From Strigamia acuminata (lineage: Eukaryota), in assembly GCA_949358305.1 (NCBI GenBank), contig OX442314.1, positions 9,548,001-9,612,000 of the forward strand: a DNA stretch of 64,000 bases. Reading direction: 5' to 3'. Both the position numbers and the translations under genes were made by a program. Positions 1,269 to 56,925 of this stretch are shown here, one piece after another; within the stretch, counting starts at the first letter, position 1, and each line of letters starts with the position of its first letter. The notes beneath the pieces were generated by a model. That model did no database searches, was not told where the DNA came from, and saw nothing but the letters and a program-made list of their open reading frames with translations.

Positions 1269-4200
1269 ATGTTCGAACCACGGAAATCACCACCACCAAA
1301 AAGACGGGACCATAGTGAGGTAGTAAAAATCGAAATGTGTCGAAAATATAAATAAGGAAGTATTTTCTCTCATCGGGTGTGTTATTTGAAAGTGCGTAAA
1401 GTATTGTGGAAATGACGGGAACGAAATATGTCGTTACAACGTGACAAGTTCGGCGAAATCACGATTTAAAATGAAAAGGAATCAAATGTCTCGAAATAAG
1501 TTAAAATAAAATTAGTTATCACTTAAATAACTGGTTTTATAAGACAAAAGTGCTAATTTATTAGGCAAAATCACAAATTAGTAACTTAAAAAGGACTCCT
1601 ATCACGGAAAATTAGCAAGGAGCGCCATCTTGTGAGAAAATTTAGAATAATAAAACTCAAAATCGAGATAAATACGCAAAAATAACACACACATCAGAGA
1701 AAGATAAAATACAATGAATTTGAGAGAAAATTGAATTTAATAATGTTTTACACAGACCCAAGAAGCCATGGCGTCGTGGGGAAGAATTTCGAGGGCGGCT
1801 AGATTGCCAAGGAATATCCACCGAGGGAGAATTCCTTATCGTTATAAAAGGGAATTTACCAAGAGAGGATACACCGCATTCCAGGCTCGAAAAGCGTTTA
1901 CAACAGCCATCCAAAGATTTTGGGGAACGACGAAACGATTATTCAAAGGATTCAAAACATGTTTCCACGAAGTTTTGAGACAGATCCCAATTACAGAGGA
2001 CACACATGGCCCAATTTGGAACCAGATGATAGGAGACGAATATCCGATAGAAGAGGAGGAAGCAGCCGATCTCAAAATATACAAGAACCCCGCGACAAAT
2101 AAATTTAAATTCGTGGAAGAGGTGATGGCCAAACTGAAAACTGGAGCGCAGGAAGTGGCAGCGAAATACATGGAAGAGAAAACCGCGTACCTTGAAGCTC
2201 AGGCCTTATTGCCTTCCCCGGAGTTAGATAAAGAGCCGCCATATTTCGTAAAGAGCCAGTACAAGATGCACCAACTCCACATGACGGGACTCATTGGCCA
2301 AAACATCACACCACTCAATTTAGAAGGTGAGCCGCCAGGCGAAGATTTTGGACCGCTCGTGTACGCCAAACAACAGCGGCAGGAGCAAGACGAATGGGAA
2401 GCAGCATTAGAGCAGGCAGCGAACGAGACGGTGAAGGAATTACACGAGGAGGTGGAGTTTCTGAAATGTGTCAGAACGGAAGAAGAGGAAACCAAACGGC
2501 GAGGAAGAGAAGCCAGATCACGAGGAGCCCTTCGTTACTCCAGGAGTGAGAGACCCAAAAGGACAACTCCTCCTCGAAGAATCAGCCCAAAATATTATAC
2601 CAGGGAATTCCGATCTAGGCGAAAAGAGTACAGAAGTGCGGAAATAAGTCCGAGAAGATGTCAAAGTCGAGATAGAAAAGAAAGTCCCCGACGAAGGAGT
2701 AAGAGTCCAATACGGCAATATTTCTCTCGTCAAACTCAAATGGAGAAAAGATTAAGTCAAACAGACAAAGATTCAGAGAGGGAAGTAAAGAGGCATCAAC
2801 GAAGCTCGGAAATAAGTCCGAAAAGGAATTCGAGGCGACACGAAACGACAGAGCAAGAATACGTACCTAGACACCACCGAGCAGCAGAGAAGCGTCCATC
2901 AGCCGAAGGAAATCGAATTGAGCGGACAAAGAAGCGCCCACGGTCGTCACACCGCTATTCAGAAATGCGCCCAGCGAGAAAAGTGACGATTTCGGCAAAT
3001 AAAGATGAGACACTACAGGTGCAAATTCGCAGAAGTTCGTCGGACGAGTATTTGACGGCACACGAGATGGAGCTAGATCAATACGTGGTAATGGACGAGT
3101 GTCAACGTTCGCCATCGCCTGATTCGGAGGAAGAGCAGCAATTGGCTGAAACGACTGTTCACATTTTGGAGGAACGGGAGCCAACAGCGACAGTCACACA
3201 CGACATTGAAAAACGACAAGGAGGTGAAACCAGCAAAAGAGGGCCACAAACACCACCTACTACCCCGCCAAGGCAGCAGGAAGTGCAGAAACCACCGCCG
3301 GCCACCCCTCCAAGACCGGACCAGGCGCCAAATACACCACCACGGAGTATGCACACTCCTATTACCTGGACTCCAACCACGTGCCCACCAACACCAACGC
3401 CGCGAGTGTCATCACCGGAGATTTCCAGCTGCCGAGAGTTGCCGACTCTTGACGAGGCCTTAGCCCAGGCATGGGAGAAAAGGGCAAGGGAACCAGCGCG
3501 GAAAAAAGGACCATCGCGAATACTGCGCCCAAGGATGCGAGATCCAAGGAAGGTACAACCAAAAGCTACGCCGAGTGCCGCCTTGGGAGTGCCTCACCCT
3601 CACTTGCAGCCAATTACGGAACCAATTCCCCAAACGGACTTATCACTGCCAATTCCGTCAGTAGCCACCGTGATGTACACGATAGACCCATCAGTTACAT
3701 TAGCCGAAGATTTCGATAAATACTATCGACAGCTGTGGACGATGTATCTGAAATTTCCGTTATGTAACCAAGGACTTCTGACCCCGACAATGGACGAGTA
3801 TCAGCAAGCCCAATTAGCAGAGTCACTAAATGAACGACGGAGATGCGCTCAAGCCTTCATCGCCCAACCCACCGAATTGAGAACCAAAGAATGGCTAGCT
3901 TGGTTCGAAGTGCAAATGTCAGTGGCATTAATAAGACTTTTGTTTCCAGGAGTTTTCCAAGCAGTCGAAGCATCGCTGATCGCCACAAGTTTCCTATGGA
4001 CGGCAGCAATGGGCATCCCACCCGAGTTGCTCGACAGCTGGAAAACAGTATTGGGAGACCCACCTGTCATCCGGGCCCAATTGGAACGAGAAGTTTTTAA
4101 AACGGGAGAGACATCGGGGCAGTGCATGCTAAGATTGCGGGGCGAATGGATTCTGAGAAGACAGAGCTTGCAACTGCAACGGAATTTTGGGACGTGTGCG

Positions 4201-4815
4201 CAGCAAGTGGCTGACCCACCAGCAGCGGGAGGGGCGGTGCCCACAATCTTTATGACTGCCACGCCAAGCCACCAGCCAACCAAAAAAGCAATAGCTCCAG
4301 AATCCGATGTCGAGTTGAAATTGACCACCGATACTGAGATGTTTGATGTCGAAGGGAATGAGCCCTTAAATAGAGCTAGTGGAAGCTCGCAAAAAACAGC
4401 GTCTGGCAGAAGTTCAGCAGCCACTAAAGGGACGAAAAAGAATCCGAACCAAGACTACAGGAAAATAAAACAGTTGTATCCAAGTCTGAGATTCCCCGAT
4501 TACGCGCGAACTCTACTTATCTATAATGCGACGTTATGCCATGAGGCATTGAAGTGGCTTGAGAATGCTGTCAGAGAGCCGAAACGCATAATTCAGCATC
4601 AACGACTAGTTGCAGTGCGGAGACCACCCACCGGATCCCGCGAAAAATATGACATCGACTATGACCGAGTATTCCCGAGGACCAAGTTCATCAAAGAAGT
4701 CTGGCTCCATGTCAACAATGGCGCCACCTCGGGACCAACCAAGCATCTGCCAAAATTTTCGGTTTCCGAAAGCGAAGCTCCAACTCCGGAGTCAGTTTTC
4801 CGAATCGAGAAATGA
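1269..4815 (+). CDS. Element C accessory ORF3 (about 1030 aa, RS-rich and Pro-rich, non-Env); probable short first exon 1269-1319 and main exon 1756-4815
   Basis: The 1015-aa ORF ends about 45 bp before the LTR, and two blocks are homologous to 51105-53342. ATG 1269...GAG|GT and TTTTACACAG|ACC at 1756 join in frame. The first exon is less certain than the main ORF. Confidence 0.8.
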
Positions 4816-4845: not shown

Positions 4846-4859
4846 AAAAAGAGGGGAGG
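4846..4859 (+). other. Polypurine tract of element C
   Basis: AAAAAGAGGGGAGG immediately before the LTR start TGTAGTG. Confidence 0.8.
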
Positions 4860-5867
4860 TGTAGTGACCCTAGTGGTCACTAATGAAGTGTCGGGAATGA
4901 GCCCGAAATAAAATATTAAGTTGGAGATTGTTTTATTTTATTTTATATTTTTTATGATTTCCTGTCTAGATAAAGGGAGTTAGGCAGGGTGGGAGGAATT
5001 GTGGGTGGTCGCCAAGGAAACCAGCCCGCAACCTCCCGGAGCAGGAAACACTTCCTGTGAGGAGCAGAAAAACTCCTCAGTTTGAAAACCTACTTTGAGA
5101 GCAACCAGTCACCAAAATCTTCCTGAGAGAACACCATTCTACAAGCTGATTTAGTGAAAGATTGCCAGAGTATTTGGACTCAGTCTTGCAACTTGCCAGA
5201 GCAATTTGTGCGACATTTCTTGCTGTTACTTCAGTTAGTGACAGTGGGAGTTTCATCTTGCCAAACAAGTATTGTTTGGAGGGATTTCTATTCTTGGCCA
5301 ACAACCATTGTTGGACTGAGATTTCCTCACTCGCGACGAAGCGAAGTGAGCGCGACTGTGTGAGATTGTTGAGCGGAATCAGCCGCAACGACGCCGCGAC
5401 GACGACGTTGCGACCTGGAGAGGACGAAGAGAGTGGGATTGAGCCCGAACGAGTCAGGAGAGCGTAGTTGTGACGGAATTGAGTCCGTGTTGAAGAAACG
5501 CCGAAGCCGAGCCGAGCGTCGGGTGAAGCGAATCCAAGCGTTCGGCATTCCCAAGAAGTGGAGCCGTCGAATCGACTGGATTCTGTATCATTTTCCTTTG
5601 CTTTTAATTATTTTCCTTTTAGTGAATTATTCCTTAAGTCATTTAATTTATCAGTTTATCACAAAATAATATCTTGTATTTGATTTAGTGTTTATTCTAA
5701 GTTTGAATAAATCGTCTGTTAATTGAGAAATAATTGAGTCATTATTTCTCTCATCATTTGAATTAATAATATAGTTATTTTGAGAAGTATTTGTATAAGT
5801 CCTGGCACGGCATCAATGAGTTTAGTTTTATTGTTAATATTCCTTACAGTAATTTGAGCTCATTACA
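4860..5867 (+). mobile_element. 3' LTR (about 1008 bp) of Ty3/gypsy element C, which extends beyond the left edge
   Basis: Near-inverted termini TGTAGTGA...TCATTACA with the PPT upstream. Similarity to the paralogous host segment (about 24472) begins exactly at 5868. Confidence 0.8.
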
Positions 5868-7270: not shown

Positions 7271-7300
7271 TCTCCGCTGGGTGGAAAATTCGACCATAGA

Positions 7301-7970: not shown

Positions 7971-7974
7971 GCGC

Positions 7975-11568: not shown

Positions 11569-13224
11569 CTAGTCCAACTCTTCATCCTCAATAAATCCTT
11601 CCATGGATGTAACAACTTCCGAGACGGCTGCGGGTGGAGAATTAAGTTGAATAGCTACCAATTCCGGTACTACATCTGTCTCAACGTCATGGGCCAGGGG
11701 ATTCAGGAGCATTCTGTGTTGTTCCTCGGTGAATACTTCCAGGGGATCAGGCCCTCCTAACGGAATGGTGTTAGCGCTGGTTGGCTCGGAGAAAACCAAG
11801 TGATGGTCGGGTAAGCCAGAGTGCCATCCCTCACGAATCAACGGGTGTGCTGCTGCTGAGACCTGCTGTAAAATCTTACACCAAATAAAAGAGCGAGTTT
11901 GAAAAGATTCCGGCCGGGATGGATGAAAAATCCATTGGATCACGGCCAGTGGCACGCTCAAATCTGGAATTCGGTCGTTTGAAATCGACACACTAATACG
12001 TTTAGCTGCTTCCAATAAAATTGGGAAATAATGTTCCACTTCTGCCTTCGTTTGTTCCGTGAGTGACATGTCTGGTCTCGGCATATATGGGTGGACCAGT
12101 AAAATAACCGGTTCAGCAGCGTTGTTTACTTCGGGGAGCGGAATAGTCGCTACGATCATGTTGTTAGCCGAAGTTCCCTCTGGAGAAGCGGCGGCTTGCG
12201 GACCAGAATCGGCTGCAACCGGCGGAGAATCAGACGCAGTAACTGACGTTGGTTCGTTCGTTGGGAGGTTTTCCGCCGAGACAACCGGAGTTCCATCAAT
12301 CGCAGGGGTGGGAGTTTCCGGCTCGCGTTGTGGCTCCGTAAATCCTCCTCGTGGAGTCGAGGTGCTGGACATTTGTGCCGGGTCTACATAAATAGCCTGC
12401 TCCGGGCCCTGGTGGATGAGGCCACATTCGCGACACATCGCCCAATTGCGTGCTGTCGGCGTACTTAGCCCCTTGACGATAAATGGAAGAATTTCTTCAT
12501 TCCACATGCTGGATATGGCAACGCGTTTACCACCGTGACAGTTCACGCAGACTACGGCGTGAATGCCGGATAACAAGGACGACAACCATCCGCATCCTGC
12601 GCACAATGGGCAGAACATCAGCTTCGACTTTGGCATGATGTTAGTCCCCAAGGCGGCAGCTTCCATATCTCGAAATACGTGTTCTCTTCGCTGCTTCCGG
12701 TAACTTGGCAAATTTAGCTCCGATATCGAGCGAGCCTGCGATGTTGGGCGGGTCAGCGCTTCGGATGAAGATGCCAACGTGGACTTGGTGGGTCCTTTGG
12801 ATTTGCCAGTCTTGCCTCGACTAGCGGTATCACGCGGATTTCGTGGTCGGGCAAACTGCCTGCTGGTAGCTGGAGGCGGAGCTTCTTCAACCGATTCTTC
12901 TTCTTGTGAGAAGTCATCTTGGCGCCGTCTCCTCGAGGCAGAACGGGAGTATTGTGACGAGTCGTCAGAAAAATCCCAATTCGGCGCATCATAGGTTACA
13001 ACACGCTGACTAGCTTGACGGCCTCTGGAAGGACGCGAGTCGGTCGGGCTAACACCCATGGCGGTCCTAATTCGTGGCGGTACGAGATCCGGGTTATCAC
13101 GGGCCCAGTTGGCAACGAGCTCGGGGTCGGAGGAGGGATTAACAAAGCGATAATCCGTCTCTTCCGACTCTTCTGGATCCCAATGCACGTACTGTCGCTT
13201 GCTAGCACGACCTCGGCGACTCAT
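11569..13224 (-). CDS. Element A accessory ORF3 (551 aa) with RS-rich N-terminus and Cys/His cluster; not Env-like
   Basis: Intact ORF between pol and the 3' LTR, in the element's sense. Contains CPLCAGC...H...CVNCH...CRECGLIH, with a splice-acceptor-like TTTTCTTGAAG just upstream. Confidence 0.85.
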   Translation of the reverse strand: MSRRGRASKRQYVHWDPEESEETDYRFVNPSSDPELVANWARDNPDLVPPRIRTAMGVSPTDSRPSRGRQASQRVVTYDAPNWDFSDDSSQYSRSASRRRRQDDFSQEEESVEEAPPPATSRQFARPRNPRDTASRGKTGKSKGPTKSTLASSSEALTRPTSQARSISELNLPSYRKQRREHVFRDMEAAALGTNIMPKSKLMFCPLCAGCGWLSSLLSGIHAVVCVNCHGGKRVAISSMWNEEILPFIVKGLSTPTARNWAMCRECGLIHQGPEQAIYVDPAQMSSTSTPRGGFTEPQREPETPTPAIDGTPVVSAENLPTNEPTSVTASDSPPVAADSGPQAAASPEGTSANNMIVATIPLPEVNNAAEPVILLVHPYMPRPDMSLTEQTKAEVEHYFPILLEAAKRISVSISNDRIPDLSVPLAVIQWIFHPSRPESFQTRSFIWCKILQQVSAAAHPLIREGWHSGLPDHHLVFSEPTSANTIPLGGPDPLEVFTEEQHRMLLNPLAHDVETDVVPELVAIQLNSPPAAVSEVVTSMEGFIEDEELD

Positions 13225-14532
13225 TGCATCTTCAAGAAAATATAAATTTTATTTGAGAACATGAATCAACCGTCGGAAATTAATTTAATTTCAAATTAAA
13301 TTAATTGTCGACCAACAACTGGATTAATTTCATAATTAATTCTTAAGTTCCCTTGTTAGTGTGTTTCCTCCATTTGTCGAATAATTATTAAGATTAATAA
13401 TTATTCTCGACTTGGCATATAATTTCATTTTATCGTTTAAAACAATATCGCTGATAAAATATTCAAATTAGTGTTTATTTAATGAAATAAACCTAATTTT
13501 TGTATCTACACGACATAATAACTAAAAAACATATAAAAATATTAAAAAAAAATATTTTTGTAAGTGTTTTTTAGCATCCGACAATAGTCATTTTACATGG
13601 TTTTAATTGTACGAATAATTCCACAATTCGTCCGAGTAAATAATTTACTACCGACATCTGGTGGCGTTTGCCCCTATCATACACGTGACTTGTTAACACA
13701 TGTCTGCTCACCAATTTCCAAGGAACTTAAGAGATATTTTATCTTTCATAAAATAAACACTTACTAACTAGGTGTAGTCCTAGAAGGGTATACTTGGCTA
13801 GTTTAATGTCTAGCTTCACGTATATGCGAGGGCTGTTCGGTTCCGGCGATGTTGGCCGATAAAAACGTTGTGCGGCGCGTGCGAATTCTAAGTCCGCCGT
13901 AATGAACGCTTAACCAAAATAAATGTTGTCAATTAATGTCAAAATATTATAAATTTTGACAAAATATTGCTTAAATGTTTACCGGGAATTCACTTAGTGA
14001 GTTCGTGAAAGGCTTACTCGCGATTTTGTCCACGAGATGGTTTCGATAATCAGCGTCGTGTCGATAATTTCTGAATTTGAACTGATATTCGTCAAATGAA
14101 AAAATCAGTAAAATAAACGATAAGTGTTCAAAATCATCTAGATTTTAACTCACTAAATTTCAGCGAAAATCCGTTAAAGCGTCGAAGGGTCGAGAATAAT
14201 CCTTGATTTCAGTCCAGTACAAAACTTGGCGAACAAGTGAGTGATAATCTCAAACCAGGGGTTAAGGGGAGTTTCGAGGAGTAATTTGATTGGTTTGTAA
14301 TTACTCATCTCGAAGTTTCTATTAACCCAAAGGGGGAAACACAGTTTCAAGTAAATGTTTACACGTAGATTAATTTGAATACAATCAGCTTGTGTAAAAA
14401 ATAACTCAAACATTTGTTAAATTTTATCCACATCAAAAAAAAAAATGTTTTTAATTAATAAAATTTAACAATTCTTCGTGAATATGATTGGAAATATTTA
14501 TTTAAAATAAAATATTTTCAATATATTGTGTC

Positions 14533-41443: not shown

Positions 41444-41990
41444 TAACTTAACCTAAAGGGAATGGTGCTCATCCATCACTTCTCAAGTCACTGCTTGTGT
41501 TCTAATTGGTTCAGGCATACGGGATACAACCGTTCGCCTTGCTGGCTAGAAGAACAACTTGTGGACCTCGAAGGGGCCCACCCACTTCCGGAAGGTCACT
41601 TCCAGGGCCCGACTCCACCAATCAAGGACCCGCAGCTCCACATGGTTGCGGTAGACCGCAACAGGCGCGCGAGAGATACGAGAGGCGCGAGAGCTGCTCC
41701 AAGTGCATTATCGTTGCAGTGCTGTGATCAGCCTGCATGGGCAGATGGTCACAACCGTACTTTTGCAAAAATATGGTATTCTTGGTGTCTCAGCCGCGGC
41801 TACTATTCGAGGATGGCTATAATTCGAGGGCGACTCTTAATCGGTAAAATACGGTAATTGGTAATTTTCTTGCTTACTTGGAATCTTTTATAATGACGTT
41901 TAAGATTTGAAGAGGCTTTCCATAATCTCCGTGAGTTGTTTGCATATTTAGATGACGGATGGAGTAAATAAAACAGCTTGTAATGACGAA

Positions 41991-42974
41991 TGTGGTGATC
42001 TCAAAATATTCACCAACTTAGAAGATTAAATTAATTATCTTCTAATTAATTTGACTGTGGCACACGCCAAGTCAGATCATGTGACCGAGGGGAGAAATCC
42101 TCTCTAGGCACATATCACCCCAGGTTGTCCGGGGTGAAAACGGTTATTAGCCGTTATGGTGCAATATGGTGTAATAACCACTAGTTGCACCCATTTGAGC
42201 TAAGTGCGCAGGTTTTCTGCGCAATATTGAAGCGTGCTGGGCTCGCGTCTTGGCTCAAATCGGGACTCTGAAAAATACAACAACAACCTCAACATCACTG
42301 CGATATTTGCTCCGACAATACGTATTGATAGAGGACCGTTGTAACTCAGTTTCATCTGCTATCTTTGTGTCATCCAAAGCACAAAGCCAGCAATTCAGCT
42401 TGAATTAGCCGTCGCTAATTCCAGCTATCGAGAAGAAGAAGTTTCCTGATCCAAGTGAACCATCGCCATCGTTGCCGCGCGAACGGCAACCATCGCCATC
42501 GTACCTGGACCAGACGCCTACAGCCGTCAACCACCGCCGCCGAGCCGTCGCACGAGCCGTAGAAGAAACCCACGAGAACCATCGTCTTCGACCATCGTTC
42601 GTGAGTTTGCCGAGAACGAAGACATTTGCCTTCGATCAACAACATCTCGTTGTTTAAGCGCCATTTCTGACGCTTTGTAGCTTGCAACAGTCGTTGCAAG
42701 CCCTTCCTTTGTTTCATTGTTTCCCGCTCATTTTATTCTTGCGACTTGTTGCATATCGTGATATTCATAATCATTATTAATATATATATTGTAATTTAAA
42801 CCGAATAAATAATTGTGTGATTTTTATTACCATAATAAACTGTCTTTTTATTCCTATTTTCGTAAACTTAACCCTAGACAAGTTTCGGCCGCGATATAAG
42901 TCTTGTTAAGCATTCACCTGCGGTTTCTGCTTAATTTATTAGAAATTAAGTGGATAAAAACCCGGATCGCAGCA
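41991..42974 (+). repeat. 5' LTR of element B
   Basis: Direct repeat of 53395-54378. Confidence 0.95.
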
Positions 42975-42976
42975 CG

Positions 42977-42994
42977 TGGGGGCCCGTCCGGGAT
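42977..42994 (+). other. Primer-binding site for tRNA-Pro
   Basis: TGGGGGCCCGTCCGGGAT, one mismatch to the canonical tRNA-Pro PBS TGGGGGCTCGTCCGGGAT. Confidence 0.9.
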
Positions 42995-43088
42995 AGTCAT
43001 TGTATAAATTTTGATAGTTTAAAATTTACCCGCCATTTTTATCTTGCTTATCTTTCTTCTCTATCCTTTCTTTGTCTTCATTTGAAAA

Positions 43089-46000
43089 ATGGCGACTCCA
43101 GGCGAAAAGAGACCGAGAGGCAGACCAGCGAAGAGACGAGTGGCCATCGATCTACCAGTCGTGGATCAAGAAGTGACTGAGTCACAAGAACTGTTTGAAA
43201 CTATGGATCAAACAGCTAACTGTAACTCGGCACAGTTAATCGTGAATGAATTCACGCAAGCGTTGGAGCGACAACAGCCATCCCCGCCAAGCGGCCAGTT
43301 GGACTTAAACAATCCAACTGGAAGTGGCCGTTCCAAGTCGCAAAACGATGATTTGAATTTACGAATTCAATCATCAAGTGCGGAGCACTCGCTGAATTCA
43401 TCACCGGTTCAAGGTGCAGCACAACAAGATTCTGAGAACTCCAATATGGAAGTTTCTCATTCTCCCGTGCGTGTTACCATGATGGACGCACTCCGTGAGC
43501 AAGCTAGGCTCGAGGGAGTAAAAGTCACTAGCGAAATGACTGTGGAACAAATCCACAAAGCTATGGTTCGCAAACAAAGCCAAAAAGACGTTGAAATCGT
43601 CAGAACAAGCTTGCAAGCAGAGTTCGAGCGAATGCGTGCAGAAATGCATCAGCAAAATGCCGAACTAAAACAACAACGTGCGAATGACCATGTTAAGTTG
43701 TTACAATTAGAGCAGGAAAAAGCTTCCTGGCTAATTACTGACGAAGAGCAACAACAAAGGCTCGAGCAACTAAATCAAGCACAAAAAGATTTAGAAATTG
43801 CTAATGAAAATTTGAGATTGGCCAACGCAAATTTGCGAGAAGCCAACACAAATTTAATGACTGCCGAACTAACCGCCCCAGTTCGAGCGAGGGAAGAAAT
43901 TCCCTCCACTTCTCGAAATTACGAGAATTATGCTGCAGAACAAGCAGCAAGAGCTAAGAGATTAGCACAACGAGAAAATGAAGTATTTCTCGCTCGACAG
44001 CAGTCAGTAATTGATGCTGGTCAAGCCGCCAAAAGTCAAAGTACTGCAGAGCAGTTATTACGTGCCGACTTAGCTGCGCAAGCTCGTGAAAACGAGATTC
44101 TTCGCGCAGATCTATTGACGGTACAAGAAAACTTTGCAGTAGTCGTACAAAAAGTACAAGACGTTTGTGGCGAAGATAATTTTGCAAAGCCAGCCCCAGT
44201 TTTGCAAAAAGGTGCTTCCAAATCACCTGAGTTGATTGATTTAACATCAGCTAAACCAAAAGTCAGTCGACAATCAAGTTGGACTGACAGTGATGACTCA
44301 CGCAGTAGTCGTGGAAGCCGTAACAGTCATCACAGTCGCAAAAAGCGAAAGCGACAACCAGACCCGACCGAATATCATTCCCCAAAAGTTACGCAAGATT
44401 CGGATCGATTCTTTAGCAATAGCGACCGGTTAATCGGAATGCTAGAGAAAAAGAATAAAGAACGTGAGAAACCACACGATCGTGGACGGTCACACGATAA
44501 TCCGCGAGAAGGCTCACCAAAACGAGATTGTCACAACGACATCCGTGATGGGCCGAGATACCGTGGAAATCCGCCAGGTGGTGACCCACCAGGTGGAGAT
44601 AGTTCAGATGGACATGGAGGTGGCCACTCACGTGACCACAATTCGAATGGCAATCGAAATGGAAGGGGACCACCAAATGGAGACCGTCGTCCGCCAGATG
44701 GCGACGATCCTCCGGACCCTGATCCGCCGCCAAATCCGAATCATGAATCTGCGTCAGATACAGATTCCTCACGTCCCAGTGTGAGAGGGCGATCTCGTCA
44801 CAGAACACGTAGTAGAACTCAAAGACCCGATTTCTACACGAAAGATGAGATTGACCAGTTGTTGAGGCAAAATGCTCAACAACAGCGAAAAAGCAGAAGG
44901 GATAAAATTATTTTGCAAAAAATAAGTGAATTTACTTCTGATAAATGGACTCATCAAACAACAGATGAAAAGTTCATTAGATGGGATCGAGTTATCCCAC
45001 ATGCCTATAATGGAAATTGGCAAGCAGGGTCAAACCTCTTGCTGGAAATATTCGAACTAGGCAAAGTTCACAGTTTTAGCTGTGAAGGTGCATTGGCCCA
45101 TCTAGTACCAAGAATACTAGTTGGCGGTGTCAAGGAGTGGTTTCGCAGGAAAGACTTCACGAAGTGGGATGACTTCGTTAAACAATTTATGTTTAAATTT
45201 GGTGAATCGAGCGAAGACATCAAGACGCTTTGGAGATGTCTTAAGCAACGAAAAGGCGAAAGCTTACATTCGTACATGCTAAGAGCAGAGAATCTGCTTG
45301 GCAGAATGCCACATGCTGTTACTGATGCAACAGCAGATGATCAGTTTAGAGCTGGCCTCACAGAATATAGTAAAAATATTCTGATGATGTCGGACGCTCC
45401 CGACCCGGGGAAATTCTCCGAGTTAAACGAATTCATGGAAGTCAATCAATTGCGCATTGACGAAAAGTACAAAGCTTATCTTACAGAAGCCGAAAGGTCA
45501 GCGTACTTAAAGCGAGAGAAAAGACTCGCTGAGCAAAACAATGAAACCTTTAATGGTTTGAAATTGTTGCAGCCACCTAGTTACGAAGACTTTCTAGACG
45601 AAGTGGATGAGAAGAGTTCGAAAAAAGAATCTTCCAAAAAGGACGTCAAAAATCCTCATTCAGTTCCTAAGTTACATGCAAATATAACTGGAGCTGAAAC
45701 TCCGTCGTCTGAAGCTGAAGAAGCTGAAGAGGAGGAGGAAGCAGGAGATGAGACGTTGGCTTTATTAGCCAAAGCAGCGGCGCTGTTAGCAAAAAATAAC
45801 CCCGTTGCAGGCAAATGGAAGCCAAAAATGAAACCAAAAAATGTTTCATTTGACGCATCAAAGGTGAATACCGAAAGGAATTCAAAATCACCCGCGGTGT
45901 CGCCAGAGCGCCGGTCTGACGCTCGTTCTCGTTCTGCCTCGCCAGCAGCAACGAAAAAGAAATCGCCTGCCACTGATCCATGCAATTTATGCAAAAAATT

Positions 46001-46112
46001 AGGGCATTGGCAAAAAGACTGCCCTTCCTCTAAAAAGGACAAACCAGTGTCAACAGCTGAGTTTGAAAAAGCAGTCAAGATCATAACTGACATGTTTCGA
46101 AAAAACTTGTAG
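43089..46112 (+). CDS. gag: Gag of element B (1007 aa, long coiled-coil N-terminal extension)
   Basis: KQRKGESL motif, CNLCKKLGHWQKDC zinc knuckle, and position right after the PBS. Confidence 0.95.
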   Translation: MATPGEKRPRGRPAKRRVAIDLPVVDQEVTESQELFETMDQTANCNSAQLIVNEFTQALERQQPSPPSGQLDLNNPTGSGRSKSQNDDLNLRIQSSSAEHSLNSSPVQGAAQQDSENSNMEVSHSPVRVTMMDALREQARLEGVKVTSEMTVEQIHKAMVRKQSQKDVEIVRTSLQAEFERMRAEMHQQNAELKQQRANDHVKLLQLEQEKASWLITDEEQQQRLEQLNQAQKDLEIANENLRLANANLREANTNLMTAELTAPVRAREEIPSTSRNYENYAAEQAARAKRLAQRENEVFLARQQSVIDAGQAAKSQSTAEQLLRADLAAQARENEILRADLLTVQENFAVVVQKVQDVCGEDNFAKPAPVLQKGASKSPELIDLTSAKPKVSRQSSWTDSDDSRSSRGSRNSHHSRKKRKRQPDPTEYHSPKVTQDSDRFFSNSDRLIGMLEKKNKEREKPHDRGRSHDNPREGSPKRDCHNDIRDGPRYRGNPPGGDPPGGDSSDGHGGGHSRDHNSNGNRNGRGPPNGDRRPPDGDDPPDPDPPPNPNHESASDTDSSRPSVRGRSRHRTRSRTQRPDFYTKDEIDQLLRQNAQQQRKSRRDKIILQKISEFTSDKWTHQTTDEKFIRWDRVIPHAYNGNWQAGSNLLLEIFELGKVHSFSCEGALAHLVPRILVGGVKEWFRRKDFTKWDDFVKQFMFKFGESSEDIKTLWRCLKQRKGESLHSYMLRAENLLGRMPHAVTDATADDQFRAGLTEYSKNILMMSDAPDPGKFSELNEFMEVNQLRIDEKYKAYLTEAERSAYLKREKRLAEQNNETFNGLKLLQPPSYEDFLDEVDEKSSKKESSKKDVKNPHSVPKLHANITGAETPSSEAEEAEEEEEAGDETLALLAKAAALLAKNNPVAGKWKPKMKPKNVSFDASKVNTERNSKSPAVSPERRSDARSRSASPAATKKKSPATDPCNLCKKLGHWQKDCPSSKKDKPVSTAEFEKAVKIITDMFRKNL

Positions 46113-49100
46113 ACGCAGATCCATCAGGTCTAGTGGACGCTGCGTCACCTCCGAAATCGGAATCAGAGAATGAAAATCTGAAGATAATGGAAGATGTTGG
46201 AGAAGCTATTGATGAATTAATTCATCAAACTGAACTAAAAGAAAATGGATCTCTTGATGTAAAAAAGGAGATTGTCGGCGAAACCCCGACTGAAGAAGAC
46301 ACTTCCAATATTCAAGATAAAGTCGAAGTTAAAGACGATAGACCAAGCTCAGTTCCAGAGACACCTGGAATTGAGGAGTGCATTAAGTTATTTGCAGCTA
46401 CAACTCTTGATACCAATGAGTTATTAGATGAATTGCCTTTGGAGCCTCCAATTACAATTCCTCATAAATTGCGCAAGTTTGAGTGCAAAGTGGCTGGAAT
46501 ACCAAACAGCCAAGACCTTCCGACGTTAAAGTTAGAAACGTTAAAAGGTGTAATAACCGGAATGTTGGACTCAGGAGCAAATAAAAGCTTCCTAGCCACT
46601 TCAGTTATTAATCAATTAGGTCTAGAAAAATATCTACGACCTATCGGACCTGGTGTCAGAGTTACAACGGCAAGTGAAGAAGTCACTCCAGATGGAACCA
46701 TCCATCTTTCATTTCGATGGACACATGGCACGTTACGTCATCCGTTCATCGTAATACCAAATAAGTATCCAATGGTACTATTGGGTTGCGATTTTATGAA
46801 TAAATTAAAAATCCAACCTAATCCACAGACGATGTCTTGGAATTTCACGCAACCTGTGGATGCAGATTTACCCTACATTCCACAAGCGTTGCTGGATCGT
46901 TATTTGGAGAAAATAGAGGAACCCGATTCCTCATTTGTGACCTTTGCAAAAGCTTACGCTGCAAGTGTAACTCAAAGCAAAATTGATGAAGAGAATTTCA
47001 TCCAAAAGTTAGTCAAAGAAGCTAACTTAAATTTGGAGCAATCCAAATTATTAGAAAAGATGTTATCCAAACATAAAAGGATTATTTCTAAAGATCCAGG
47101 TAAAACACACCTGGTTAAGCACAAAATTGAGCTTGACACGGAGAAACCCATCCGTGTCCCCTTTAAGAGCATAAACCCTCAAAAAAGGGAAATAATCAGA
47201 CAACTTTGTCAAGACATGATTGACAAAGGCGTAGTCGTCAAAGCTGAAGGCGATTACGGAATGAGGCCAGTCCTAGTCATGCGACCAGGAAACGACCCAC
47301 GCTTGTGCATTGATTTTCGCCCCATCAATACACATACTAAGTACAACCCACCTCAAATGCCAACAATTGAGGAAATTCTGCGAGAAATCGGAGAATTCGA
47401 ATGGGTCAGTACTATAGATCTGACCAAGGGATATTGGCAGATAGAATTGCGACCTGAAGACAGAGAAAAAACTGCCTTCTGGAGCCCAATGGGAAGACTA
47501 ATGTTTTTAGTCATGCCTTTCGGATTAGTAAACGCACCAACTACCTTCCAAGAATTAATGGAAAAAGTTTTGGGTGACGTTTACAGAAAATTTGCATGGG
47601 CATATTTGGATGACATAATTGTTGTATCCAAATCGTTCGAAGAACACATTAAACATTTAGATATAGTGTTTAAAAAATTGGCAGAAGCTAATTTACATGC
47701 GCACCCTGGCAAGACGCATCTCTGTAGAAAGGAATTAATTTTTCTAGGCTACAAAGTAGGAGTAGAAGGACTTGCAGTAGACCCTAAAAAAGTCGCTGCA
47801 ATTACGCAATTTCCTGCTCCTACCAATCTTAAGGAATTACAAAGATTTCTAGGCATGGTGAATTTCTTTCACCGCCTAATCAAGAATTTGGCCACAGTGG
47901 CAGAACCACTAAGGCCACTCTTGAAGAAAGATGCGGAGTTCGATTGGGAACTGCATCATCAGGCAGCATTCGACGCAATAAAAGACTTGCTTACGAATGC
48001 TGAAACAATGAAGATGCCTGACTTGTACATGCCATTTATTGTTCATACTGACGCCAGTAAACAAGGGTTGGGTGCAGCCCTTACACAAAAGAAAAATGTG
48101 GATGGCCAAGAAGTCGAAATGCCATGCGTGTATGCAAGCAGAAGCTTGCAACCCGCTGAAAAGAATTATACTGTGACAGAATTAGAATGTCTCGCAGTAG
48201 TATGGGGATTACGCAAATTTCGCCCATACTTAGAGTACACTACATTCACTGTACAAACGGATCACCAAGCACTTAAGTGGTTGATGTCGTTATCTGACCC
48301 GTCGGGCAGATTAGCTCGTTGGCAAATGGAGCTGATGGCGTATTCGTTCGAAATACAATACGTCAAAGGTCCGCTAAATGTAATAGCAGACGCATTGTCA
48401 CGTGCACCTGTCAGCGCACCTGACGAACCAGAAGACGATGGCGATAATGATGATTTATTATCATATTGTCCATCTCCTTGCCGAAGTTGGCAAATGGGAA
48501 AATTGAATGAATTACCCAAGTCGATAATAGTTAATGAAGACGATCAAGCATTAATCAATTTTTGTATTAACATGCATGATCCGTCAGGAACCCCTGACGT
48601 CGAATTAAGGGCTATGATGGCTAAAAAATTCGAGCTGCCAACAACAAATGTTTTAATTAAAGCATTTGCAGCTAAAATTGCCAAACAATTGGAATGTGAT
48701 CCTCCAACGAGAGATGACATTATTGCGGCGCAAAAAGCAGACAAATTTTGCCAACATATTCGCAATTACTTGTTAAACAAGCAATACCCAAGTTACATAG
48801 TAACTCGTCTTCAAAGAAGAAATTTTGAAAGACACGCGAGTACTTATCTCATTGAAGAAGATATGTTACTCCATTATCATCCTACCTCTACCGATGAATT
48901 GGGAGAGGATGGTAGGGCACTTAAAGTTGTTGTGCCAAGAAAATTGATTTATAAAATCATTTGGTTGATGCACGGACATCCACTGTCCGGCCACCCAGGC
49001 ATTGCGAGGACAATGTACCGAACTCGAAGAGTTTATACCTGGAAAGGTATGAAACGTGATATTACACGTTTTATTCAACATTGTCAAGGATGTCAGGCAT

Positions 49101-50359
49101 GTAAGCCGAGATCAAAGACCGAAATTGAAGGCGCTCAAATTGGACCATTTGGACCATTTGACTGCCTCAGTGTGGATTTGTCTGGTCCCAAACCAAGAAC
49201 CAGAAAAAACAATACCCACATTTGCGTCATCGTAGATGTCGCTACACATTGGCCCGAATTATTTCCAATGTGTAATCCAACGGCAATAAAAGTTGCCAAC
49301 ACAATTTATCACTTATCAATGACTTTCGGATTTCCGAGACAAATCATAAGTGATAATGGACCACAATTTCGATCACAGGTCTATAAAGAATTTTGCAAAA
49401 AATTCGACATGTCGCGAACACCGACATCGATTTATCATCCACAAAGCAATCCTGTGGAGAGAACCAATCGAGATATTAAATATTTAGTTTCGATTTATTT
49501 AGATATTCATGACCAATGGGATGAGTATCTACGCGAATTTGCATTCAGTTTGAGAACAACTGTAACAAGAGGCAGAGATTATTCTCCTGCTTTCTTAAAT
49601 TTTTTCCGAGAATTAAGAATTCCTTGGGATCCAAGAATTCCGGAAGGAATTTTAGTCATTGATCCAAAAAATCCGCATTTATATGTTCAGAAATTAGAAA
49701 CAATAATTGCAGAGACGTATCAGCATATGATGTCTCACGTCTTAGATTTGAGACGCCGTGTCGAAGCTGAAAAATCAGATAAGAAATTCGACAACTTCAG
49801 ACAAAATGATTTAGTCTGGCGAGAGTCTCATATTCTCTCAAATGCCGCTAAAGGAATAGCAGCAGGCATTTCACCGAAAAGGAATGGGCCTTATGTAATT
49901 ATCAAAAGGTTACAAGGAGGCGCCTTTCAACTTCGACGGCTGAGTGATAATAAAATTTATCCAGCTGTTCACGGCACTGAATTAATGCCGTACTTTCCCG
50001 TTTTCAACCAAGAAATTTGGCTGGAAGGGGAGGAAGTGGGTCAAAAAACAAAGAATATTGTTAATACCTTGGATGATGCTAAATTATCCAAAATTCCTGT
50101 CGAAAACACGGAATCGAGTAAAAAATCGAAACTCAAAAATAACGAAGTCGATGAAATAAACCAGCGACTTGAAAATGTTTCTCTTGATGAAAATCTAGAA
50201 AAGGAAATGTTTTTAGAAAAAGAGAAAATTTCAAACAATGAAGTATATAACTCATCTGACATTGGAGACGATGCTGATGACAATCTAAACAAGTTGGATT
50301 GTACTTCGCGAAAGTCAAAGTACAACTTGAGATCTCGCGTTCCGCGAGCCAAGACATAG
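46106..50359 (+). CDS. pol: Pol polyprotein (PR-RT-RH-IN) of element B, reached by -1 frameshift
   Basis: MLDSGA, YLDD, TDASKQGLGA, HGHPLSGH..CQGC, SDNGPQF, ERTNR and GPY motifs. Confidence 0.97.
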   Translation, partial: LVDADPSGLVDAASPPKSESENENLKIMEDVGEAIDELIHQTELKENGSLDVKKEIVGETPTEEDTSNIQDKVEVKDDRPSSVPETPGIEECIKLFAATTLDTNELLDELPLEPPITIPHKLRKFECKVAGIPNSQDLPTLKLETLKGVITGMLDSGANKSFLATSVINQLGLEKYLRPIGPGVRVTTASEEVTPDGTIHLSFRWTHGTLRHPFIVIPNKYPMVLLGCDFMNKLKIQPNPQTMSWNFTQPVDADLPYIPQALLDRYLEKIEEPDSSFVTFAKAYAASVTQSKIDEENFIQKLVKEANLNLEQSKLLEKMLSKHKRIISKDPGKTHLVKHKIELDTEKPIRVPFKSINPQKREIIRQLCQDMIDKGVVVKAEGDYGMRPVLVMRPGNDPRLCIDFRPINTHTKYNPPQMPTIEEILREIGEFEWVSTIDLTKGYWQIELRPEDREKTAFWSPMGRLMFLVMPFGLVNAPTTFQELMEKVLGDVYRKFAWAYLDDIIVVSKSFEEHIKHLDIVFKKLAEANLHAHPGKTHLCRKELIFLGYKVGVEGLAVDPKKVAAITQFPAPTNLKELQRFLGMVNFFHRLIKNLATVAEPLRPLLKKDAEFDWELHHQAAFDAIKDLLTNAETMKMPDLYMPFIVHTDASKQGLGAALTQKKNVDGQEVEMPCVYASRSLQPAEKNYTVTELECLAVVWGLRKFRPYLEYTTFTVQTDHQALKWLMSLSDPSGRLARWQMELMAYSFEIQYVKGPLNVIADALSRAPVSAPDEPEDDGDNDDLLSYCPSPCRSWQMGKLNELPKSIIVNEDDQALINFCINMHDPSGTPDVELRAMMAKKFELPTTNVLIKAFAAKIAKQLECDPPTRDDIIAAQKADKFCQHIRNYLLNKQYPSYIVTRLQRRNFERHASTYLIEEDMLLHYHPTSTDELGEDGRALKVVVPRKLIYKIIWLMHGHPLSGHPGIARTMYRTRRVYTWKGMKRDITRFIQHCQGCQACKPRSKTEIEGAQIGPFGPFDCLSVDLSGPKPRTRKNNTHICVIVDVATHWPELFPMCNPTAIKVANTIYHLSMTFGFPRQIISDNGPQFRSQVYKEFCKKFDMSRTPTSIYHPQSNPVERTNRDIKYLVSIYLDIHDQWDEYLREFAFSLRTTVTRGRDYSPAFLNFFRELRIPWDPRIPEGILVIDPKNPHLYVQKLETIIAETYQHMMSHVLDLRRRVEAEKSDKKFDNFRQNDLVWRESHILSNAAKGIAAGISPKRNGPYVIIKRLQGGAFQLRRLSDNKIYPAVHGTELMPYFPVFNQEIWLEGEEVGQKTKNIVNTLDDAKLSKIPVENTESSKKSKLKNNEVDEINQRLENVSLDENLEKEMFLEKEKISNNEVYNSSDIGDDADDNLNKLDCTSRKSKYNLRSRVPRAKT

Positions 50360-50701
50360 TGTTGTCTTTCACCTTTTGGGTTTACCCAAAAGATCCGAGA
50401 AAGCAATCTCGTGACGTCATTCGTAGTACCCACTCGAATGACAACGTTAATCATACGTTATAATTAGTGACGTCACAAAGCGTCTCTAATCCAAGTTCGT
50501 GTTTGCAATCAACGAACTTAGTCACTTTTTCAAAAGTTTCGAGAGTGTATGCATCGCATCGCCTACGTTACGACCCGAATAGTTCGACAACCTGATCGTA
50601 AGTAATTTTTCTGTATGAAAAATTTGATAAAACATAAGATTTATGTATTATTTCTCTTTCAAGACGAAAGAATTTCCGAAATTACCGGAAAACGAAAGAG
50701 A

Positions 50702-53342
50702 ATGGACGAGGAAGCGATCCAACTCCAGGCGGACGGAGAAATGCCCATGGAAGGGGCAAATGAAGACGTTCAATTGACGCTTCAACAACGGGTAAATTAT
50801 TAGAATAAATTTTTACCAAGTGTTTAAGTCAGAAAAATTGAGTAATTTCACTTTTCCTGACTTCAAACACAAGCCGCTAAAAAATAAAAATGGCGGCTAT
50901 AAAAGTCACGTGCTTCAAGCATGTGCGAAGGGAGTTGCCATGACAACCAACATCCCTTAGTGACTCACAGCCACAAGCGCTAAGCTTAAAAAAATATTTC
51001 AAATAAGAAATTATTTGTTTATTTTTAAATAAACTAATTTATTTATTTTTCTTCGAATATAGATCGAGAGGGATCGAGAAACGCCATTCGCGCTTCCCGA
51101 TCACGTGCCGACTCAGCACCCGCTGATTTTTCGAGCGGCATTGCCCGAAAAAATCAGAAGACTGAAGACGGCAAACAATACCTGGTGGAAGTTGCGCCAC
51201 GACTTCAGCAGATCAGCGCTGCAAGGATTTGGTGCAAAAGGAAGATTCATCGAGCGCCTTCACGTGGACGGTGTCGACGAAATCGAGTGGACGCTCGACG
51301 AGAGCCCCCCAGGACCGCTTGCAGCAGAGTTGCTGCACAACCAGTGGCCAGTGACGCCACGAGAGCGTCACGAGCGCAGAAGAGCGCTAAAGAGTACCGG
51401 AATTAATTACGGTGCTCTAACCCAATTGAGGAAGAACCTCAAGACGACACAACGCGAAGTCGTTAAACGGTATCGCAAATCCGTTCGTGACGGGAACCCA
51501 CAACTTCCCGTCACACAAACCGAGCTCCACCAGTTGGCGCTCGCCGGGTGTTTTAACGATTTTCCGGGATTTTTCCCGTCCAAAGCACTCCGAGCTGCCG
51601 CGGTGCAGCTTCGCGTCAACGAAAATCGACAACTGGCTCGAGAACACGAGGCAGAGGAGCAAGCGCGTTGCGCTCTCCCTTTTTATCAAGAAGATGAAAT
51701 TCCGGCCCCAGCGGCCATCAATCCTCCGCCGCAAGACGAGGATTTGAGGGTGGGGCAACTCCCTCCGCCGGTTCCAGTCCGACCGATGTTCCGCGAATCA
51801 AGCCGCGATCGAGAGGAACGTCAGAAGCGATCACGCCCATATTCGACTGACGCGCAGCCATCACGCCCGCAGTCGCGACGAGGACGGACACCAGAGTCGT
51901 TTGGCTCGTCGTCTTCGCTGAGTTTTGAATCGGACTCCACAATTAAGTCCGCCCGAAGTAGCCGAACCGCCTCCACGTTCAAAGTGGACAACTCGGCTAC
52001 TCCATACGCCATGAGACGTGTTGTCGGTGATATTTCTCCCGACTGTAGCGTGCCAGTACCTGGACATGCTAGCCGCTTGCCCGAACAAGGATATGTTTCC
52101 CGCTTGCCGGCTGGAGTTAGCAACCTGCAACTCCGGCCATTTTTTAGTGAGTCATTCGGCCCACAATGGACCTGCTACGAGCAGCAACCCATTAGAGCAC
52201 AGCAGGAAGTGCTCCAGAAGCTGGACGCATACCAAAGCGCCCAGATCGCCGAGTCGCAGAAGGACTGGCAGAGACTAGCTGAAAGGCTAGAAGTCTCCGA
52301 CATCAATACCATTGATGATCCCCGTCTGATGGATTTTCAGCGTCAGCTAATTCCGGGGATGACTAGGGTGTTGTACCCTGGTGTTCTTCCTTCGCCAGGA
52401 CAGGCGTTAGCGGCCATAACGTACCTTTGGACCGCGCCGATGGGCCTGTCGGAGAAGAAAGTCGAGCTGTGGTACCACCTCAGGCTCGACCCGCCTACGA
52501 TCTTAGCCGAGCTAATAAAGCAAGTCGTAGCAAACGGTGAGACCGAAGAAGAGGCCGCCGTTCGGTTGCGAACCGAGTGGTCCTTTGCGAAGGCCACGGC
52601 GCGAATGACCGGAAGACCACCGCTTCCAGTTACAAGCGCCACAGCAGCTGCGTCACTGGCTGTTTTCCAGTCGGCCCAAGAGGGCGCTGGATGTTCATTT
52701 TGGCCAGAGAACGCCGGAAGTTCTCAAACTCCAGCCGGAGTTCAACGGGTAGTCGAAACCCGTCAGCTCCCCGGTATGGGTCGAGCACCGGGACGAGGCG
52801 TCACACCCTCGTCAACCTCCGCACCCGCGTTGGTTTTCTTGGGCCCGCAGTGCCAGTTTGACGATGCCACGACGGAAGACTCACGTCCGCCGCCGCCGCC
52901 AGCCAAGCCGGAGACGAAGGTCAAGCCGCTGAAAAAAGAGTCGGCTTTCAAGACCCTAATGCGCCTGTATCCGCACTTCTATTTGACGCCGGATACGCGA
53001 ACACTGCTTAGCAACAACCACAAGTTGTCGAGGCAGGTGTTTATGTGGCTCGAGGACCACATCCGGGTGTTAAGCCCACCATCGGTGCTCCATGATCGAC
53101 TCCTGAGAGCACGATTAGCGCCAGAGGATCCAATCGAGTTCGCGGCGCTAGGATGCTTCAACCGAGCGAACTCGGCAAGAATCATCCAGGTTTGGCTTCA
53201 TGTCAACCCTGGAATGGTCTCCGGACCAAACGCAGGTCGCGACCTGTGTACGGTTAACGAGCGGTCCAACCCGAGGGACGACACCACGGATATGATGCGC
53301 CCGTTGACGCCTGAGCGAACTCAGACCATGGACGAATCATAA
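50702..53342 (+). CDS. Element B accessory ORF3 (about 790 aa), exons 50702-50791 and 51063-53342; non-Env
   Basis: ATG 50702...CGG|GTAAAT and TTTTCTTCGAATATAG|ATC join in phase 0 into the 745-aa ORF; homologous to 1768-4815. Confidence 0.85.
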
Positions 53343-53394
53343 ATTGGTTCGTTCATTTTCTCTCCATGTAAGATTCGTCTTAAATGGGGGGATG

Positions 53395-54378
53395 TGTGGT
53401 GATCTCAAAATATTCACCAACTTAGAAGATTAAATTAATTATCTTCTAATTAATTTGACTGTGGCACACGCCAAGTCAGATCATGTGACCGAGGGGAGAA
53501 ATCCTCTCTAGGCACATATCACCCCAGGTTGTCCGGGGTGAAAACGGTTATTAGCCGTTATGGTGCAATATGGTGTAATAACCACTAGTTGCACCCATTT
53601 GAGCTAAGTGCGCAGGTTTTCTGCGCAATATTGAAGCGTGCTGGGCTCGCGTCTTGGCTCAAATCGGGACTCTGAAAAATACAACAACAACCTCAACATC
53701 ACTGCGATATTTGCTCCGACAATACGTATTGATAGAGGACCGTTGTAACTCAGTTTCATCTGCTATCTTTGTGTCATCCAAAGCACAAAGCCAGCAATTC
53801 AGCTTGAATTAGCCGTCGCTAATTCCAGCTATCGAGAAGAAGAAGTTTCCTGATCCAAGTGAACCATCGCCATCGTTGCCGCGCGAACGGCAACCATCGC
53901 CATCGTACCTGGACCAGACGCCTACAGCCGTCAACCACCGCCGCCGAGCCGTCGCACGAGCCGTAGAAGAAACCCACGAGAACCATCGTCTTCGACCATC
54001 GTTCGTGAGTTTGCCGAGAACGAAGACATTTGCCTTCGATCAACAACATCTCGTTGTTTAAGCGCCATTTCTGACGCTTTGTAGCTTGCAACAGTCGTTG
54101 CAAGCCCTTCCTTTGTTTCATTGTTTCCCGCTCATTTTATTCTTGCGACTTGTTGCATATCGTGATATTCATAATCATTATTAATATATATATTGTAATT
54201 TAAACCGAATAAATAATTGTGTGATTTTTATTACCATAATAAACTGTCTTTTTATTCCTATTTTCGTAAACTTAACCCTAGACAAGTTTCGGCCGCGATA
54301 TAAGTCTTGTTAAGCATTCACCTGCGGTTTCTGCTTAATTTATTAGAAATTAAGTGGATAAAAACCCGGATCGCAGCA
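53395..54378 (+). repeat. 3' LTR of element B
   Basis: Preceded by PPT-like AAATGGGGGGATG; no differences from the 5' LTR noticed by eye. Confidence 0.95.
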
Positions 54379-56896: not shown

Positions 56897-56925
56897 TATA
56901 TACTCTGTATATACTGTATATATTG

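What the first reader, a model, noticed from the sequence alone, without database searches (positions are those of the whole stretch)
50702..53342. Conserved non-Env ORF3 family shared by two distinct gypsy elements (B and C)
Seen: elements B and C have unrelated LTRs, yet both carry a long intact ORF directly before the PPT. These share two alignable blocks. Block 1 is YQxAQxAES...RxLxPGV...LWTAxMG...DPPxIxAxL...GET...RLRxEW. Block 2 is LYP...RTLL..N..L....WLE...H.RL...IxxVWLHVNxGxxSGP. The blocks are separated by Arg/Ser- and Pro-rich low-complexity sequence. I see no signal peptide or C-terminal TM anchor. Known: the third ORF of errantiviruses is a membrane Env. Inference: this is a conserved soluble accessory protein of a gypsy lineage, possibly an RNA-processing/export factor or silencing suppressor. 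I do not recognise the domains.
Basis: partly seen in the sequence, partly recalled or inferred. Interest (0 to 1): 0.85.

Follow-up and report, generated by a model that had tools for sequence, protein, structure and literature searches.

The report
Orphan spliced third gene in retrotransposons
Two unrelated-looking jumping genes in an animal genome carry, where retroviruses keep their envelope gene, related genes for a protein with no known relatives and no membrane anchor that is kept intact by selection, and this protein likely works in the nucleus to help the element make or export its own full-length RNA.

Summary
Element C (41991-54378) is a young, intact gypsy element with identical LTRs. 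Its third gene is not one ORF from 50702. A 30-codon ATG exon is predicted to splice in frame onto a 759-codon frame (51063-53342). That frame is homologous to the ORF at 1768-4815 (element B): BLASTP E 3e-29, two strong blocks and a weak third, N-terminal block. The Arg/Ser region lies before block 1, not between the blocks. B's gag-pol is outside the window. Copy variants show purifying selection (27 synonymous, 13 replacement; 18:4 in the domains). There is no transmembrane segment and no Env or Pfam hit. No relative was found among 1.84 billion representative proteins, and low-confidence models matched no fold. C's integrase groups with element A and with Strigamia (centipede) elements. 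Element A carries a different, Cys-rich non-Env ORF3 that has a Strigamia homologue, so this clade fills the ORF3 slot with at least two soluble families. The function is inferred: most likely a nuclear RNA regulator like Cer1 CERV or Rev (0.35), or a Tas/VANC-like activator (0.25). It is a new protein family in a known kind of slot.

The parts
41991..42974 (+). Element C 5' LTR (984 nt, TG...CA), identical to the 3' LTR; 4-nt target-site duplication at 41987-41990 and 54379-54382
   Evidence: contigs that skip the whole element (empty site)
42977..42994 (+). Primer-binding site after a 2-nt spacer; tRNA-Pro-like (assignment recalled, not confirmed by a call)
   Evidence: supplement look-ups gave no Pro row to check against
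43086..46112 (+). gag of C (ATG 43089; CCHC knuckle)
46091..50359 (+). pol of C (protease, RT, RNase H, integrase in gypsy order), overlapping the end of gag in another frame
50360..50701 (+). pol-ORF3 spacer, predicted internal promoter and leader. It holds the window's only two TGACGTCA palindromes (50412, 50468), an initiator-like site (50518), a donor (50598) and a likely acceptor at about 50663 (by eye)
   Evidence: not shown by RNA
50702..50791 (+). Predicted first coding exon of ORF3 (30 acidic codons from the ATG)
   Evidence: phase-0 donor at 50792
50792..51062 (+). Predicted GT-AG intron (271 nt) with YY1-like (50887) and E-box (50905) motifs; other copies have 1- and 2-nt deletions here
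51063..53342 (+). Main coding exon of C ORF3 (759 codons; first in-frame ATG only at codon 242)
   Evidence: selection
51126..51548 (+). N-terminal basic domain, weakly homologous to the N-terminus of B
   Evidence: z 5.2; 9 synonymous: 3 replacement in aa 1-200
51798..51968 (+). Arg/Ser-rich low-complexity region (much longer in B, with SPRR-type repeats)
52125..52607 (+). Middle conserved domain (block 1), predicted helical at low confidence
   Evidence: (4:0)
52923..53252 (+). C-terminal conserved domain (block 2): predicted three-helix unit, then the H..RL and WLHVN.G..SGP motifs
   Evidence: (5:1)
53382..53392 (+). Polypurine tract of C
53395..54378 (+). Element C 3' LTR
1744..4815 (+). 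Element B ORF3 homologue (ATG 1768, 12 nt after the best acceptor of its upstream region at 1755|1756)
4846..5867 (+). Element B polypurine tract (4846-4859) and single LTR (4860 to about 5867; end inferred from the terminal inverted repeat only)
11569..13248 (-). Element A's different non-Env ORF3 (Cys-rich plus helical domain); comparator, not a member of the B/C family

Best explanation
ORF3 is a selected, membrane-anchor-free accessory gene of a gypsy retrotransposon that is predicted to be spliced and likely encodes a nuclear, nucleic-acid-binding regulator that helps the element's own intron-containing full-length RNA escape splicing and leave the nucleus, in the manner of Cer1 CERV or retroviral Rev. 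Shown: an intact young element; homology between B and C in three colinear blocks with variable linkers; purifying selection among copies, strongest in the blocks; no transmembrane segment; a basic Arg/Ser region. Inferred, in order: (1) a subgenomic mRNA, probably from a promoter in the pol-ORF3 spacer, is spliced onto the main exon, giving about 789 aa in C; (2) the basic clusters and RS/SP repeats take the protein to the nucleus and let it bind RNA under kinase control; (3) because the genomic RNA must keep the introns in the spacer, the protein binds its own family's RNA through the conserved domains and licenses export, translation of gag-pol and packaging. That it is a real conserved non-Env gene: about 0.9. 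This particular mechanism: about 0.35.
For: Homology. Selection: 27 synonymous, 13 replacement and 0 stop among the 40 listed of 85 variant sites, against an expected synonymous share of 0.25-0.31 (P 1e-8 to 2e-6); domains 18:4, linkers 9:9. The only short indel row in the frame is 3 nt, while 1- and 2-nt deletions occur in the predicted intron. The N-domain lies upstream of the first in-frame ATG (codon 242) yet is conserved and selected, so an upstream spliced start is needed. In both B and C the best acceptor sits at the start of the frame. RS/SR dipeptides: 14 in C, 20 in B; B has 8 S/T-P-x-K/R sites; net charge +11 and +36. Precedent: CERV, from a spliced mRNA, is nuclear, has three domains on flexible linkers and is needed for export of genomic RNA (PMC10309623). 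Internal promoters ahead of the third ORF occur in Tor4b elements (PMC4402516).
Against: No RNA run was listed, so neither the splicing nor the promoter is shown. No sequence or fold similarity to CERV, Rev or any RNA-binding domain was found. The RS region is short in C and poorly conserved. C has only one S/T-P-x-K/R site. No convincing export-signal motif lies in a conserved block. The promoter motifs are not shared by all three spacers: B has ACGTC cores, CCAAT and a YY1-like site; A has CCAAT and the E-box; the spacers do not align. Element A, in the same integrase clade, manages with an unrelated ORF3 of net charge -19, so the B/C protein is not a clade-wide need. Five of the six sites where nearly all contigs differ from this copy are replacements, so this copy carries private changes.
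Confidence: 0.35

Rival explanations
1. A chromatin-level activator or anti-silencing factor. It is made early from an internal promoter and then switches on the LTR of its own family, like foamy virus Tas, or removes silencing marks, like plant VANC.
For: Predicted LTR-independent promoter holding the window's only two CRE palindromes. Acidic first exon in C, basic N-domain. Tas is made from an internal promoter and activates the LTR (PMC13220597 abstract). Strigamia methylates silent transposons (PMC6673714 passages), and the closest named integrases are from Strigamia.
Against: The B and C LTRs share no sequence although the proteins are homologous. B has no acidic exon. CpG is not depleted in the elements (observed/expected 0.84-1.53). 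The host is not identified. No DNA-binding fold was found.
Confidence: 0.25
2. A cytoplasmic or particle-associated RNA chaperone or assembly factor, possibly also made as a Gag-ORF3 fusion by splicing from the end of gag.
For: Basic RS/SPRR tracts can condense RNA (recalled from hepadnavirus core and coronavirus N). A phase-0 donor at 45864 near the end of gag would be in frame with the acceptor at 51063.
Against: Donors of this score are common in 7.3 kb. Block 1 does not align to the capsid region of the window's Gag proteins (hhalign probability 0.4%).
Confidence: 0.15
3. A captured and diverged enzyme, for example a nuclease or RNA-modifying domain, with the invariant H..R and WLHVN.G..SGP residues of block 2 as its active site.
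For: Block 2 keeps His, Arg, Asn, Gly and Ser at 32% identity. Bdelloid ORF3s are captured DEDDy and GDSL enzymes (PMC5408684 section 3.3). ORF3 has a higher GC3 than gag-pol (0.59 against 0.34-0.37), which fits a separate origin.
Against: No Pfam or PDB-sequence hit, and no relative among 1.84 billion representatives, where a host enzyme family should have left a trace. Two sequences cannot separate catalytic from structural conservation.
Confidence: 0.13
4. An atypical Env or fusogen.
For: Position directly before the polypurine tract and a predicted spliced mRNA, as for env.
Against: No hydrophobic leader or anchor. Cysteines are not shared between B and C. One and three N-glycosylation sequons only. 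Strongly basic low-complexity tracts. No Env family hit.
Confidence: 0.03

Closest known systems
CERV of Cer1 (C. elegans gypsy element; PMC10309623, abstract and one results section read)
   Same: Extra non-Env protein from a spliced mRNA; three structured domains on flexible linkers; fast-diverging and lineage-restricted; basic nuclear signal and phosphorylation sites.
   Different: CERV shares exons with gag and lies 5'; it has a Cys loop and a G-protein-like domain. Here the gene sits between pol and the PPT with its own ATG. No similarity to CERV appeared in database searches, and no direct pairwise test was run.
Non-Env ORF3s of bdelloid Juno/Vesta LTR elements (PMC5408684, abstract and section 3.3)
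   Same: Same slot; family-specific ORF3s swapped within a lineage, as between elements A and C here.
   Different: Those are recognisable captured enzymes (DEDDy, GDSL). This family matches nothing.
Foamy virus Tas/Bet (PMC13220597, abstract) and Tor4b internal promoter (PMC4402516, passages)
   Same: A 3' gene expressed from a promoter inside the element; predicted here from motifs.
   Different: Tas is a retroviral DNA-binding activator, and Tor's gene is a membrane Env. The promoter here is unproven.
MDG1-group sORF1/sORF2 (bioRxiv 10.1101/2025.03.14.642691, passages)
   Same: Selected accessory ORFs in env-less gypsy elements; sORF1 is nuclear.
   Different: They are 70-110 aa and lie upstream of gag; this one is about 790-1015 aa and lies downstream of pol.
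Errantivirus Env (PMC13524379, passages and supplement look-ups)
   Same: Position and predicted splicing.
   Different: Env has a signal peptide, ectodomain and transmembrane anchor; none is seen here.
VANC of VANDAL DNA transposons (PMC6719617, passages); plant additional ORFs (PMC7264820, abstract)
   Same: Transposon-encoded accessory proteins, some family-specific anti-silencing factors; extra ORFs between pol and the 3' LTR.
   Different: Plant elements; no sequence link found.

Membership tests
Ty3/gypsy LTR retrotransposon (element C) | TG...CA LTR pair, target-site duplication, PBS, PPT | tested here: met
Ty3/gypsy LTR retrotransposon (element C) | gag, then pol in the order protease-RT-RNase H-integrase | tested here: met
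Ty3/gypsy LTR retrotransposon (element B) | gag-pol linked to the ORF3 | not testable with these tools
   Outside the window; no genome is held. Only PPT and one LTR are seen.
Errantivirus / retroviral Env | N-terminal signal peptide and C-terminal transmembrane anchor | tested here: not met
   Hydropathy maxima 1.01 and 1.55, none terminal. SignalP and DeepTMHMM were not available.
Errantivirus / retroviral Env | F-type or gB-type ectodomain homology | tested here: not met
   0 Pfam families at E<=1 for either protein; 0 PDB sequences at E<=10 for C
Osvaldo/Ulysses-like clade | Pol groups with named members of the clade | not tested
   No named reference was in the tree. The resemblance of the integrase C-terminus is recalled only.
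CERV/Rev-like export factor | Made from a spliced subgenomic mRNA | tested here: inconclusive
   Splice sites, phase, indels and selection fit; no RNA run listed
CERV/Rev-like export factor | Nuclear localisation and requirement for export of unspliced RNA | not testable with these tools
   Needs bench work
CUE/UBA-like three-helix bundle (first half of block 2) | Profile or fold match | tested here: inconclusive
   Three helices at pLDDT 60-71, but no CUE/UBA entry
Gag capsid-derived domain (block 1) | Profile similarity to capsid | tested here: inconclusive
   hhalign 0.4% with two-sequence profiles on each side

The most novel reading that the evidence does not exclude
A myriapod-linked gypsy clade has evolved a complex-retrovirus-style regulatory module. 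An internal promoter drives a spliced early gene in the env slot, filled by at least two unrelated nuclear protein families: the B/C three-domain family with new folds, and the A/Strigamia zinc-binding family. Each controls or de-silences its own element family in trans. That would be an animal LTR-retrotransposon counterpart of Tas, Rev or VANC.
Probability: 0.3. Interest if true: 0.8.

Novelty: new variant of a known kind. Interest (0 to 1): 0.55.

Why it matters
Few accessory proteins of animal LTR retrotransposons have a known job; CERV and the MDG1 sORFs are recent cases. How these elements export intron-containing RNA or evade silencing is an open question. This window offers two young, intact, high-copy elements of one clade with two different selected orphan ORF3 families, so localisation, RNA/DNA-binding and reporter tests can be run directly. 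It may also give new folds. As it stands, the finding adds an orphan family to a known kind of slot; it does not yet add a mechanism.

Full report
Layout. The window is eukaryotic and holds four LTR-element pieces. Element C spans 41991-54378: two identical 984-nt LTRs, a 4-nt target-site duplication, a primer site, gag (43086-46112), pol (46091-50359, protease-RT-RNase H-integrase) and a third long frame at 51063-53342, ending 40 nt before the polypurine tract. Element A is an intact minus-strand element with identical 1590-nt LTRs (9323-10912, 21751-23340), also with a 4-nt duplication and a 2-nt spacer. Its primer site matches the tRNA-Gln end listed in a supplement of PMC13524379. Element B is represented only by an ORF at 1744-4815, a polypurine tract and one LTR. 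Upstream of B lie the LTR (about 632-873) and gag start of a fourth, opposite element, so B's gag-pol is out of view. Contigs of two public runs (one study, same organism) cover all of C deeply and include contigs that skip the element at its insertion site. Summed depth is not a copy number, but C is clearly a multi-copy family.

Is the homology real? Yes. BLASTP of C against B gives E 3e-29 and 26% identity over 434 columns. Against shuffles, block 1 has z 34 and block 2 z 19 (0 of 500 each), and an N-terminal stretch of about 140 aa has z 5.2 (1 of 500). The protein therefore has three colinear domains, with an Arg/Ser- and Pro-rich region between the first two and a Pro/Ala/Thr/Gly linker between the last two. 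The LTRs of B and C are unrelated. No further copy of either family lies in the window.

Gene structure. A phase-0 donor at 50792 ties for the best donor in the spacer, and the best acceptor lies exactly where the long frame opens (the scoring matrix was approximate and recalled). The first in-frame ATG of the long frame is codon 242, downstream of the conserved N-domain, so an upstream start is needed. Other copies carry 1- and 2-nt deletions at 50988 and 51050 inside the predicted intron (12 of 37 indel rows shown). The single short indel row inside the frame is 3 nt. That call also lists five low-depth joints, three of them multiples of three and two not. In B the best acceptor lies 12 nt before the ATG. 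C's spacer holds the only two TGACGTCA palindromes in 64 kb, an initiator-like site, a further donor, and YY1-like and E-box motifs; B and A share only some of these, and the spacers do not align. An internal promoter is therefore a prediction. A phase-0 donor at 45864 in gag is an alternative route. No RNA run was listed.

Selection. Of 85 variant sites in the frame, the 40 best supported were listed: 27 synonymous, 13 replacement, no stop. The expected synonymous share is 0.25-0.31, giving pN/pS 0.16-0.21 and P 1e-8 to 2e-6. The three domains show 18:4 and the linkers 9:9. For comparison, gag gave 5:0 and pol 8:4, after I left out three gag rows (45603, 45608, 45610) and one pol row (48096) that had low support. 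Caveats: these are differences among collapsed contigs, chosen by support, and five of six sites where this copy stands nearly alone are replacements.

Not Env, and not anything named. Hydropathy shows no leader or anchor. Pfam, PHROGs, PDB sequences, two word-indexed searches, a profile search of 1.84 billion representatives, the ESM Atlas, and viral and metagenome contigs gave no true relative. The large searches used blocks 1 and 2 only. Models from two-sequence alignments were poor (pLDDT 38 and 47). Only a three-helix unit at the start of block 2 reached 60-71, and fold searches were at background. So the folds are unknown, not shown to be new.

Lineage. A profile of the A and C integrases (38% identical) found 168 proteins, of which 120 were listed. 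The top six scores were five Strigamia maritima gene models and one unnamed record; the top five stood well above the rest (366-519 bits, then 275). In a quick IQ-TREE tree of 108 of 122 rows (14 dropped for short coverage or over-long matches, one of them a Strigamia row), C, A, P0008 and five Strigamia rows form a clade with SH-aLRT 99, with C on a long basal branch. The careful search did not finish, and no named clade references were included. The host may be a myriapod, but it is not identified. One Strigamia model (P0009, T1IRW1) runs on from integrase into a homologue of element A's ORF3 (E 1e-20; shared Cys motifs and a helical domain). A-type and B/C-type ORF3s do not align. The clade thus carries at least two unrelated soluble ORF3 families, one of them conserved across species. 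ORF3 has a higher GC3 than gag-pol in both C (0.59 against 0.37 and 0.34) and A (0.49 against 0.30 and 0.39).

Mechanism. The anatomy is a spliced 3' gene, basic, with RS/SP tracts and three small domains on loose linkers, in an element whose genomic RNA must retain introns. That best fits a nuclear regulator of the element's own RNA, working like CERV (PMC10309623: abstract and one results section). I put this at 0.35. A Tas- or VANC-like activator comes next at 0.25 (PMC13220597 abstract; PMC6719617 and PMC12859917 passages; PMC6673714 passages on methylated transposons in Strigamia). A particle-associated factor (0.15), a diverged enzyme (0.13) and Env (0.03) follow. None of these steps is shown.

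Novelty. Non-Env third or accessory ORFs are known in bdelloid elements (PMC5408684, abstract and section 3.3), plants (PMC7264820, abstract), MDG1 elements (10.1101/2025.03.14.642691, passages) and Cer1. Internal promoters before ORF3 are known in Tor elements (PMC4402516, passages). PMC13524379 (passages and supplement look-ups) and PMC2238898 (passages) did not mention this family in what I saw. Nine literature searches found no description of it, but transposon databases could not be searched. Verdict: a real, selected, orphan accessory protein family, and a new variant of a known kind. Interest 0.55.

Noticed in passing
window 11569-13248 (-): Element A's ORF3 is a second non-Env family: a CxxC-rich zinc-binding region plus a helical domain, homologous (E 1e-20) to the C-terminal part of Strigamia gene model T1IRW1 (P0009), where it is fused to integrase, probably by the gene predictor. 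No Pfam match. Worth its own follow-up, as it has a cross-species homologue.
   Followed up: partly
window 29025-31271 (-): 748-codon frame with MELT repeats (Pfam MELT E 1.3e-20), like the kinetochore scaffold KNL1/Spc105. It lies among large satellite arrays and young LTR insertions, perhaps near a centromere.
   Followed up: partly
window 1-873 (-): Fourth LTR element: short 242-nt LTR (632-873), a primer site and the start of a gag-like frame running off the window; apparently inserted in element B's pol-ORF3 spacer.
   Followed up: partly
window 54526-55053 and 59108-59737 (-): Exon of a DEG/ENaC channel gene (Pfam ASC E 5e-9); the second frame may be its 5' part but had no Pfam match.
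   Followed up: partly
window 5868-9100, 24470-28840, 33440-38000: A large repeated unit with 20-, 21-, 30- and 51-nt tandem arrays; element A is inserted in or beside one copy.
   Followed up: no
window 39896-41450, 55401-56901, 62333-62771: Long inverted-repeat pairs (87-97% complementary), likely non-autonomous DNA transposons.
   Followed up: no
window 38246-38319 (-): tRNA-Thr(CGT) gene called by ARAGORN.
   Followed up: no
window 51063-53342, laid contigs: Contigs with about 10-18% differing letters lie across the frame (table 8), so more distant C-type subfamilies exist in this genome and could deepen the alignment.
   Followed up: no
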